A stretch of 62,996 nucleotides of DNA, counting the filler, from Collodictyon triciliatum (Eukaryota), in NCBI GenBank assembly GCA_043381765.1. It is 37 parts of 37 records of this genome, joined end to end, with 100 filler letters (N's around TTAATTAATTAA, not from the genome) between each part and the next. Parts side by side here need not be neighbours in the genome. Positions count along the whole stretch, not along the records: positions 12,052 to 13,655 come from JBHJMP010010645.1; 36 more parts are not named here. One strand, given 5' to 3'. The position numbers and the translations under genes were made by a program. A model generated the notes under the pieces. The model ran no database searches. It saw only the letters and a list, made by a program, of their open reading frames with translations, and had not been told where the DNA came from. This document shows, one piece after another, positions 12,052-12,770 of the stretch (positions are counted from its first letter, which is position 1; each line of letters begins with the position of its first letter).

Positions 12052-12770
12052 CACCGCGGGCTGGAGACAAGCACGAACCCCGCAATTCCTTTCAAATCAC
12101 CGCTCTCTAATGCATAATATCACCAATAGGGAGCTATGGATAGGCACACGCGCGGTAAAAGCTGGCAAAGTCTCCCAACAATGCACACTTTGCAGCAACG
12201 GTGATGAATCCATTGAGTACACATTTGTGCAATGTCCCTTCGCTCAAAACCTGCGCGAAACAGCTGATGAGATTCTTCGACTGACACTCAAGACGGCTGC
12301 GGTTGTTGACCCAATCCAGGCGATATTTGGGCCTCTGCAACAGCTGCGACCAGAGGCAAAAACATTCTGGGCAGTGATGCGAGGCCATTTGCTATGGACT
12401 ATGTGGATAGCGCGCATATACCCACGCAAAGCAAGACTCAACAACTAGCCACCCATTCCTGATAACAGGCTGGATGACATCATACAAATCTCTTTCTCAA
12501 CAGCTTCCTTCGCCACCTGCACGTTCTCTACTACTCAGACCATGTGAGAAGAGACATGTGGAAAGAAGCTGAGAAAGATATTAAACCTCGCCTTGTATCC
12601 CTCATGCAAGCACAAGACCCAGGCCACAGGCCAACCCGCAGAATGCAATTCCTGATTACCGACTACTTCTCCGCCACCCGGCCACCAAGTAGCGTCCATG
12701 CAAACGATGGCCAACGAACTAAAGTAAATACTCAATCATATTTCACTAATTGAATGGAAGAATAAAAAAA
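12052..12770 (+). mobile_element. L1/Tx1-type LINE ORF2 3' end (zf-RVT region, C-terminus, short 3' UTR, A-rich tail), decayed
   Basis: CTLCSNGDESIEYTFVQCPFA zinc knuckle, LLWTMWIAR motif, one stop and one frameshift, then QFLITDYFSATR and an A-run at 12764-12770. Confidence 0.9.

What the first reader, a model, noticed from the sequence alone, without database searches (positions are those of the whole stretch)
12646..12681. Retrotransposon ORF2p ends in a textbook PCNA PIP-degron (QFLITDYFSATR)
Seen: Q-F-L-I-T-D-Y-F-x-x-x-R lies just before the ORF2 stop in two copies (12646-12681 plus; 61270-61305 minus). The divergent subfamily has QLVIIDFF (54098-54121) exactly 35 residues after the shared YSD motif, while the intervening residues have largely diverged. 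Established: Qxx(hydrophobic)TD(aromatic)(aromatic)xxx(K/R) is the CRL4-Cdt2 degron of p21, Cdt1 and Set8, which triggers destruction on chromatin-bound PCNA. The known L1 ORF2p PIP box is internal, between EN and RT. Inference: this LINE family recruits PCNA via its C-terminus and may be degraded at the integration site or in S phase, giving a self-limiting, replication-coupled retrotransposition system. I am not aware of this arrangement having been described.
Basis: partly seen in the sequence, partly recalled or inferred. Interest (0 to 1): 0.85.

Follow-up and report, generated by a model that had tools for sequence, protein, structure and literature searches.

The report
C-terminal PCNA-box on a LINE ORF2
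A family of LINE-type jumping genes in an unnamed freshwater eukaryote keeps a textbook PCNA-binding (PIP) motif at the very end of its reverse-transcriptase protein, which suggests it hooks onto the host's DNA sliding clamp differently from human LINE-1.

Summary
QFLITDYFSATR is at 12646-12681 (+) and 61305-61270 (-), and QLVIIDFF is at 54098-54121, each 35 residues after a shared YSD.

There are caveats. The window is 37 unrelated ~1.6 kb contigs joined by N-linkers. The second copy is cut by its contig end exactly at the Q. Copy 1 is a decayed copy.

The element is an L1-like non-LTR retrotransposon, with RVT_1 and zf-RVT matches and a C-terminal domain that superposes on human ORF2p 1097-1265.

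Database relatives fall into five deeply diverged subfamilies, 19-41% identical outside the motif. Of 22 sequences covering the site, 18 keep a canonical PIP box, Q-x-x-[IV]-T-[DN]-[FY]-F, lying 7-14 residues from the stop. It sits in a low-confidence tail just past the folded domain.

My best reading is a conserved, high-affinity-type C-terminal PIP box that tethers ORF2p to PCNA. Binding was not tested.

The degron idea is only partly supported. T-D occurs in 18 of 22 sequences, but K/R at +4 occurs in only 10 of 22 and is absent from two subfamilies. The host's Cdt2 could not be checked.

This is a new variant of a known kind, of moderate interest.

The parts
12052..12771 (+). 3' fragment of a family-1 LINE copy: ORF2 C-terminal domain, tail and short A-run. 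It starts at the contig edge.
   Evidence: tblastn with P0021, P0026 and P0004. Summed contig depth is 700-3700 on 12160-12700 against about 35 on the flank in run X1.
12053..12445 (+). ORF2 C-terminal domain with the zf-RVT zinc knuckle (frame 2)
   Evidence: Pfam PF13966, E 5.9e-07, 30.5 bits against a cut-off of 27.5
12446..12448 (+). In-frame TAG private to this copy
   Evidence: Position 12446 reads C in 18 of 18 X1 contigs and in the 1 X3 contig. P0006 has Q here.
12478..12750 (+). ORF2 tail in frame 1, shifted by one base from the upstream frame in this copy
   Evidence: One more base behind 12495 in 6 X1 contigs (depth 694 of 1577), X3 1/1 and X6 1/1.
12532..12540 (+). YSD landmark in the last long helix of the C-terminal domain
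12646..12669 (+). PIP-box core QFLITDYF
12670..12681 (+). Positions +1 to +4 (SATR), with R at +4
12751..12753 (+). Stop codon of this copy. Copy 2 has a TAG 13 codons earlier, where P0008 ends.
12764..12771 (+). A-run at the 3' end of the element
   Evidence: A loose end of As behind 12771 in an X1 contig.
61181..61305 (-). Second family-1 copy. Only its last 125 bases are present, cut by the contig end at the Q codon.
   Evidence: 86.4% identity over 125 bases to 12646-12768
61270..61305 (-). QFLITDYFSATR in copy 2
52942..53301 (+). Reverse-transcriptase domain (with YADD) of the family-2 copy, frame 3
   Evidence: Pfam RVT_1, E 8.8e-13; YADD at 53053-53064
53489..54247 (+). Family-2 ORF2 C-terminal domain and tail in frame 1, with one TAG at 53837-53839
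54098..54121 (+). PIP-box core QLVIIDFF. Other family-2 copies read QLAITDFF.

Best explanation
The motif is a conserved C-terminal PIP box (PCNA-interacting peptide) on the ORF2 protein of an L1-like, poly(A)-tailed non-LTR retrotransposon family of an unnamed freshwater eukaryote.

What is shown:
- The ORF2 C-terminal domain, homologous to the human ORF2p CTD, ends in a long helix that contains YSD.
- A linker of about 10 residues and then Q-x-x-[IV]-T-[DN]-[FY]-F follow that helix.
- The protein stops 7-14 residues later.

What is inferred:
- This exposed tail inserts into the hydrophobic pocket of the host's PCNA, as the C-terminal PIP boxes of p21, FEN1 or pogo transposase do.
- It thereby tethers ORF2p to the sliding clamp at the nicked target during or after target-primed reverse transcription, or at replication forks.
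- That is the job the internal PIP helix is thought to do in human LINE-1.
- The T-D pair, and the basic +4 residue where present, are best read as affinity-raising features.
For: 1. Element identity.
- RVT_1 and zf-RVT match in the window copies.
- The distant full-length relatives P0012 and P0013 carry Exo_endo_phos, RVT_1 and zf-RVT.
- P0012 matches human ORF2p at E 3.4e-57.
- The AF2 model of P0026, residues 151-326, superposes on human ORF2p 1097-1265 with Z 10.6, rmsd 3.7 and 156 aligned. The next row scores 8.0.
- The element has an A-run 3' end and very high summed depth.

2. Conservation.
- An HMM search of 1.84 billion representatives, with a 219-position profile dominated by the C-terminal domain, gave 16 hits. 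All five subfamilies were among them.
- Subfamilies are 19-41% identical outside the motif.
- The 8 motif columns are the top-ranked 8-column window of the tail, tied with one window in the 6-representative set. Mean pairwise identity is 0.62 or 0.69, against 0.33 or 0.38 overall.
- 18 of 22 sequences covering the site fit Q..[ILMV]..[FYW][FYW].

3. Constraint at protein level. Between the two window families, 4 of the 6 identical residues of motif plus P-P (I, D, F8 and the first P) use different codons.

4. Position.
- The motif lies 7-14 residues from the stop in the 17 of 22 rows with the shortest tails after it. Two rows end early and three read 25-41 residues on.
- In the model, residues 329-353 have pLDDT below 50, and a short helix at 336-343 overlaps the motif at 337-344.

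5. Precedent.
- Q, I, T, D, Y and F of family 1 equal the core of the pogo-ligase PL peptide, SAVLQKKITDYFHPKK, which has a Ki of 0.136 uM on human PCNA (PMC4103810, Table 1).
- PCNA binds human ORF2p through a PIP box that is needed for retrotransposition (PMC10830420, PMC5478143 and PMC5371812, passages).
Against: - No binding test of any kind was possible. No host PCNA sequence is available and the complex job was not folded.
- Subfamily 5 (P0004, a single sequence) has QYFNTPFF, with N at position 4, so it is not canonical.
- P0028 has L at position 7. P0006, P0007 and P0021 have lost the frame at or before the motif.
- Many of the 22 sequences are near-identical copies. The independent units are the 5 subfamilies.
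- The later searches used a tail profile that includes the motif, so they could favour motif-bearing copies.
- The AF2 alignment has only 23 rows, so low pLDDT may reflect its shallowness and not disorder.
- The distant full-length relatives P0012 and P0013 have no PIP match anywhere, so PCNA tethering is not a general need of this clade.
- PIP-like motifs can bind other partners (recalled).
Confidence: 0.6

Rival explanations
1. In subfamilies with T-D and a basic +4 residue, PCNA-bound ORF2p is recognised by CRL4-Cdt2 and destroyed on chromatin, which makes retrotransposition self-limiting or S-phase-gated.
For: - Family 1 (QFLITDYFSATR) and 6 of 8 family-3 sequences (for example QTVITDFFAVPR) fit the full consensus. 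That consensus is a PIP box with T-D at positions 5-6 and K/R at +4.
- P0004 also has K at +4.
- The definition comes from PMC8871960 (passages).
- The motif lies in a probably disordered tail, as degrons do.
Against: - K/R at +4 is found in only 10 of 22 sequences. It is absent from subfamily 2 (V, P, A, T), subfamily 4 (P) and one family-1 copy (L), and it is H in two family-3 copies.
- No basic residue stands at +3, which the review calls important in human cells.
- A degron would cost the element, so selection on the element should remove it. T-D and B+4 are also explained by PCNA affinity.
- Whether the host has Cdt2, DDB1 and CUL4 is unknown.
- No paper links PIP degrons with retrotransposons (0 papers).
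Confidence: 0.12
2. The motif is conserved but is not a PCNA handle. It could be a short helix that docks back onto ORF2p itself or onto ORF1p or the RNP. It could instead be a PIP-like motif for another genome-maintenance partner.
For: - In human ORF2p the PIP-box helix is itself packed against palm and fingers (PMC10830420, passages).
- AF2 draws a short helix at 336-343.
- PIP-like motifs are known to bind proteins other than PCNA (recalled, not from a call).
Against: - The model gives no confident contact. pLDDT is 29-39 over the tail.
- The match to the canonical consensus and to the high-affinity PL core holds at every PCNA-contacting position.
- The extreme C-terminal position after a variable, Pro-rich linker is typical of clamp-binding tails.
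Confidence: 0.2
3. There is no protein function. The similarity reflects chance, recent common descent, or a constraint on the RNA or DNA of the element's 3' end.
For: - The motif lies about 100 bases from the 3' end, where some LINE RNAs carry recognition signals (established knowledge, recalled).
- Most copies are dead and decaying.
Against: - Background rate of the PIP regex is about 10 hits in the six-frame translation of the other 60 kb.
- The motif is kept at the aligned place in subfamilies whose flanking tail is near saturation.
- Conserved residues are coded by different codons in the two window families.
Confidence: 0.06

Closest known systems
Human LINE-1 ORF2p PIP box
   Same: - It is also a LINE ORF2 protein of the L1 kind (APE endonuclease, RT, cysteine-rich C-terminal domain) that carries a canonical PIP box.
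- In L1 the box mediates PCNA binding and is needed for retrotransposition (PMC10830420, PMC5478143 and PMC5371812, passages).
   Different: - In L1 the box is an internal helix (residues 404-419) of the tower between EN and RT, packed on palm and fingers.
- Here the box is appended after the end of the C-terminal domain, beyond the point that superposes on human residue 1265 of 1275, in a tail of low model confidence.
- Whether these elements also have an internal box is unknown, because no copy with the EN-RT linker was found.
Drosophila pogo transposase PIP box (also in Tigger and Lemi1) and the pogo-ligase PL peptide
   Same: - It is a mobile-element protein with a PIP box (PMC5371812, passages).
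- The PL core Q-K-K-I-T-D-Y-F shares Q, I, T, D, Y and F with family 1, and it binds human PCNA with a Ki of 0.136 uM (PMC4103810, Table 1).
   Different: - Pogo is a DNA transposon, and the two proteins are unrelated.
- The functional relevance of the pogo motif is called unclear in the review.
- That pogo's box is C-terminal is my recollection. Warbrick 1998 is not held.
PIP degrons of CRL4-Cdt2 substrates (p21, Cdt1, Set8)
   Same: Subfamilies 1 and 3 fit the consensus: a PIP box with T-D at positions 5-6 and K/R at +4, in a disordered region (PMC8871960, passages).
   Different: - The +4 basic residue is not conserved across the family, and +3 is never basic.
- No evidence of degradation exists, and the host's Cdt2 is unknown.
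Beta-clamp-binding motifs of bacterial IS and Tn7 transposition proteins
   Same: It follows the same general theme: mobile elements evolving short clamp-binding peptides, seemingly by convergence (PMC5371812, passages; PMC4549789, listing and abstract start only).
   Different: These are bacterial clamps and DNA transposons, with a different motif.

Membership tests
L1-like (APE-type) non-LTR retrotransposon ORF2 | Reverse-transcriptase domain | tested here: met
   RVT_1, E 8.8e-13, on 52942-53301, with YADD at 53053-53064
L1-like (APE-type) non-LTR retrotransposon ORF2 | Cysteine-rich C-terminal domain (zf-RVT) homologous to the L1 ORF2p CTD | tested here: met
   PF13966 on 12053-12445 (30.5 bits, cut-off 27.5) and on P0026 and P0021. 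Model residues 151-326 against 9hdo_A 1097-1265: Z 10.6, rmsd 3.7, 156 aligned.
L1-like (APE-type) non-LTR retrotransposon ORF2 | N-terminal APE-type endonuclease | not testable with these tools
   Contigs are about 1.6 kb and no copy reaches the 5' half. The domain is seen only in the distant relatives P0012 and P0013.
L1-like (APE-type) non-LTR retrotransposon ORF2 | Poly(A) or A-rich 3' end and many dispersed copies | tested here: met
   A-run at 12764-12771 and 'AAGAAAAAAAAAAAAA' behind 12771 in another copy. Summed depth 700-3700 against about 35 on the flank.
Canonical PIP box | Q-x-x-[ILM(V)]-x-x-[FY]-[FY] | tested here: met
   18 of 22 sequences and 4 of 5 subfamilies fit. The consensus is as given in PMC5371812.
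Canonical PIP box | Lies in an exposed or disordered stretch, often at a terminus | tested here: inconclusive
   The motif is 7-14 residues from the stop. pLDDT is below 50 for 329-353 with a short helix at 336-343, but the alignment has only 23 rows.
Canonical PIP box | Binds PCNA | not testable with these tools
   No host genome is held. The complex job with a stand-in clamp was not folded.
PIP degron (CRL4-Cdt2) | T-D at positions 5-6 | tested here: met
   18 of 22 sequences, in subfamilies 1, 2 and 3. Subfamily 4 has T-N, subfamily 5 has T-P, and the window's family-2 copy has I-D.
PIP degron (CRL4-Cdt2) | Basic residue (K/R) at +4 | tested here: inconclusive
   10 of 22 sequences. It is present in subfamilies 1, 3 (6 of 8; H in 2) and 5, and absent in subfamilies 2 and 4.
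PIP degron (CRL4-Cdt2) | Host has Cdt2/DDB1/CUL4, and the protein is degraded on chromatin-bound PCNA | not testable with these tools
   No genome is held for the window.

The most novel reading that the evidence does not exclude
In the subfamilies that carry the full signature (T-D plus R or K at +4), the C-terminal box works as a true PIP degron. ORF2p that has engaged DNA-loaded PCNA at an integration site or fork would be ubiquitylated by CRL4-Cdt2 and removed, giving a one-shot, replication-coupled retrotransposition cycle. The subfamilies that lost the +4 base would then be escape variants. This would be the first mobile-element protein known to be wired into the Cdt2 pathway.
Probability: 0.1. 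Interest if true: 0.8.

Novelty: new variant of a known kind. Interest (0 to 1): 0.5.

Why it matters
PCNA is called the only positive host factor known to bind L1 proteins directly (PMC5478143, passage), and what it does in target-primed reverse transcription is still open.

A second LINE lineage that evolved a PCNA box at a different place in the protein would argue that clamp recruitment is a recurrent need of LINE integration. It would weigh against the human box being an accident of the tower domain.

A free C-terminal peptide of the high-affinity type is also easier to work with than the buried L1 helix. It gives a simple handle for binding, competition and stability assays. The natural variation at +4 gives a ready-made test of degron against plain tether.

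Tried and rejected
- Protein word-index search with the family-1 tail alone, longer lengths: 19 candidates, none scored.
With the 6-row alignment A5, metagenome contigs gave 107 pattern matches with none confirmed. Genome contigs gave 38 pattern matches with none confirmed. No DNA of the other subfamilies was obtained, so no codon-level selection test beyond the two window families was possible.
- No whole genome is held. A search for host PCNA, Cdt2, DDB1 or CUL4, or for full-length copies, was therefore impossible.
It gives no information either way.
- tblastn of P0012, P0013, P0026, P0021, P0004, P0010 and P0016 against the window found only the two loci already known. No EN-RT linker is present, so an additional internal PIP box cannot be excluded.
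- The subfamily tree is unresolved at its base (8 of 12 inner branches open). I therefore do not claim an order of gain or loss for the +4 residue.
- RNA libraries X6 and X11 hold contigs on parts of the ORF2 tail and on the flank. These are contigs, and DNA carry-over is possible, so I do not claim expression.
- Earlier-findings look-ups returned nothing.
- I considered a constraint at RNA level. I rejected it because conserved residues use different codons.

Full report
**What the window is.** The 62,996 bases are not one locus. They hold 72 runs of exactly 44 N, paired around TTAATTAATTAA. These split the window into 37 contigs of 1591-1718 bases. No whole genome is held. The contigs carry ordinary eukaryotic genes: a WD40 propeller, a SAP30 Sin3-binding region, an S26 signal peptidase and a DUF7630 membrane protein. 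They also carry many microsatellites. A 1.6 kb contig of the window is found, in part, mostly in freshwater, lake and drinking-water metagenomes and metatranscriptomes: 20 holders from 16 studies, with coded ids.

**The observation.**
- QFLITDYFSATR is at 12646-12681 (+) and at 61305-61270 (-). QLVIIDFF is at 54098-54121 (+). YSD stands 35 residues upstream in both families.
- The 35 residues in between are 5/35 identical.
- A generic PIP regex hits 13 times in all six frames of the window, and three of these hits are the sites in question. The full degron regex hits only the two family-1 sites.
- The second 'copy' is only the last 125 bases of an element, 86.4% identical to 12646-12768. Its contig ends exactly at the Q codon.
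- Copy 1 has an in-frame TAG at 12446-12448 and a frame change before 12478.

**What the element is.**
- The family-2 contig has an RT domain (RVT_1, E 8.8e-13; YADD at 53053-53064). The family-1 contig has zf-RVT (E 5.9e-07). The tails themselves match no Pfam family.
- A profile of the window's own C-terminal pieces (219 positions) was run against 1.84 billion representatives. It gave only 16 hits at E <= 0.001.
- Most hits are fragments from short contigs of 510-1809 bases.
- Two are distant full-length proteins, P0012 and P0013, with Exo_endo_phos, RVT_1 and zf-RVT. P0012 matches human LINE-1 ORF2p at E 3.4e-57.
- An AF2 model of P0026 (353 aa, 23-row alignment, mean pLDDT 55.8) has a confident helical domain at about 180-328. 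Model residues 151-326 (the aligned range) superpose on human ORF2p 1097-1265 of the TPRT complex 9hdo_A (Z 10.6, rmsd 3.7, 156 aligned). That is the best of 48,161 chains, and the next row scores 8.0.
- Element ends carry an A-run at 12764-12771. Another copy continues with 13 As.
- In run X1 the LINE part has summed contig depth of 700-3700, against about 35 on the unique flank. This is not a copy number, but it shows a high-copy repeat.

**Is the motif in the ORF2 frame?** Yes.
- The family-2 window copy runs in one frame from the zinc knuckle to the motif, with a single TAG.
- For family 1, P0006 has an unbroken frame from the C-terminal domain to the motif.
- In laid contigs, the window's stop reads C at 12446 in 18 of 18 X1 contigs and in the X3 contig. 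One more base stands behind 12495 in 6 X1 contigs (depth 694 of 1577), X3 1/1 and X6 1/1. The breaks are therefore absent from other copies: the stop from every laid contig, the one-base difference from many.
- No variant row is listed inside 12646-12699, although 21 rows were not shown.
- Family-3 proteins (P0002, P0018-20, P0026-29) run from the zinc knuckle through the motif and all end 9 residues after it.

**Conservation.** The searches and the cluster listing gave 22 sequences that cover the site, window copies included. P0007, which is frameshifted, was left out of the alignment. P0005 and P0010-P0016 do not cover the site.

The sequences fall into five subfamilies that are 19-41% identical outside the motif. 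The two branches of subfamily 3 are 73% identical to each other.

| Subfamily | Motif and following residues |
|---|---|
| 1 | QFLITDYF-SATR (once SATL) |
| 2 | QLAITDFF-PVL[APT] (window copy QLVIIDFF-PVLV; once QLAVTDFF-PALP) |
| 3 | QT[AV]ITD[FY]F-AV[PSI]R or AVLH (once ...TDLF) |
| 4 | QSVITNFF-SIIP |
| 5 | QYFNTPFF-YYSK |

- 18 of 22 sequences fit the canonical PIP regex, 18 of 22 have T-D, and 10 of 22 have K/R at +4.
- Among one representative per subfamily, the motif is the top-ranked 8-column window of the 71 shared tail columns, tied with one window in the 6-representative set. Its mean pairwise identity is 0.62 with all six representatives and 0.69 without subfamily 5. The overall means are 0.33 and 0.38.
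- Between the two window families, I, D, the last F and the first P after the motif are coded by different codons. This points to a protein-level constraint, not a nucleic-acid one.
- The motif lies 7 residues (subfamilies 2, 4), 9 (subfamily 3) or 14 (subfamily 1: copy 2 and P0008) from the stop.
- In the model it lies just past the last domain helix (302-324), in a stretch with pLDDT below 50. A short helix at 336-343 overlaps the motif at 337-344.
- Much of the '35 diverged residues' is that last helix (H302-324), which may help explain the fixed spacing.

**Mechanism.** The best-supported reading is a clamp-binding tail. The family-1 core shares Q, I, T, D, Y and F with the pogo-ligase PL peptide, a sub-micromolar binder of human PCNA with a Ki of 0.136 uM (PMC4103810, Table 1). 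Human ORF2p binds PCNA through a PIP box that is needed for retrotransposition, but there the box is an internal helix at 404-419 packed on the RT (PMC10830420, passages; PMC5478143). Clamp-binding motifs in transposition proteins are a recurrent, apparently convergent theme (PMC5371812, passages). The steps from 'conserved canonical motif in an exposed tail' to 'binds PCNA at TPRT sites' are inference. No binding test could be run.

**The degron idea.** By the review's definition, a PIP degron is a PIP box with T-D at positions 5-6 and K/R at +4, with +3 also mattering in human cells (PMC8871960, passages). Subfamilies 1 and 3 fit this definition. Subfamilies 2 and 4 lack the basic +4, no subfamily has a basic +3, and the window's own family-2 copy has lost the T. 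The same review links these residues to high-affinity PCNA binding, so they need not mean degradation. A degron would also cost the element. I keep it as a minority reading, with a probability of about 0.1.

**Novelty.** The literature searches returned only work on the internal human L1 box. These were 'PIP box' with ORF2p, PCNA and C-terminal (5 papers), with non-LTR retrotransposon (4 papers), 'PIP-box' with retrotransposon and PCNA (9 papers), and PCNA/non-LTR/ORF2/PIP/clade (1 paper). 'PIP degron' with retrotransposon gave 0 papers. Subscription journals and supplements are not covered. A C-terminal PIP box on a LINE ORF2 is thus a new variant of a known kind, of moderate interest.

Noticed in passing
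whole window; linkers for example at 11952-12051 and 61306-61405: The window is a chain of 37 unrelated contigs (1591-1718 bases, in roughly descending length) joined by N44-TTAATTAATTAA-N44. Distances and neighbourhoods across linkers mean nothing.
   Followed up: yes
60375-61042 (+) and 8428-7766 (-): A second repeat family: 82.7% identity over 672 bases between two contigs. Open frames at 59713-60711 have no Pfam match. It lies next to the cut family-1 LINE tail. It may be another mobile element.
   Followed up: partly
52942-53507: In the family-2 copy only about 75 codons separate the end of the RT match from the start of the C-terminal domain. In P0012 about 290 residues separate them. 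This copy probably has an internal deletion.
   Followed up: partly
2-1087 (-): An uninterrupted 362-aa frame of seven or more WD40 repeats, running off the contig end.
   Followed up: partly
38275-38850 (-); 45357-45566 (+); 51248-52678 (+): Host gene pieces: a SAP30 Sin3-binding region (E 1.8e-13), an S26 signal peptidase fragment, and a 477-aa cysteine-rich multi-pass membrane protein with DUF7630.
   Followed up: partly
13125-13655 (-): An open frame with about 11 tandem TVQP repeats at the contig edge, followed by a Ser/Pro-rich stretch and a basic tail. The part at 12840-13530 is single-copy in run X1, and parts of it occur with 0 differences in RNA libraries X6 and X11.
   Followed up: no
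P0012 and P0013 (database proteins): The nearest full-length ORF2 relatives end right after the C-terminal domain. They have no PIP-regex match anywhere, not even between EN and RT.
   Followed up: partly
many contig ends, for example 61406-61500, 44462-44673, 20560-21070: Contigs often begin or end in microsatellites or low-complexity runs, such as (CT)n and AAG/CTT-rich arrays. These are probably where the assembly broke.
   Followed up: no
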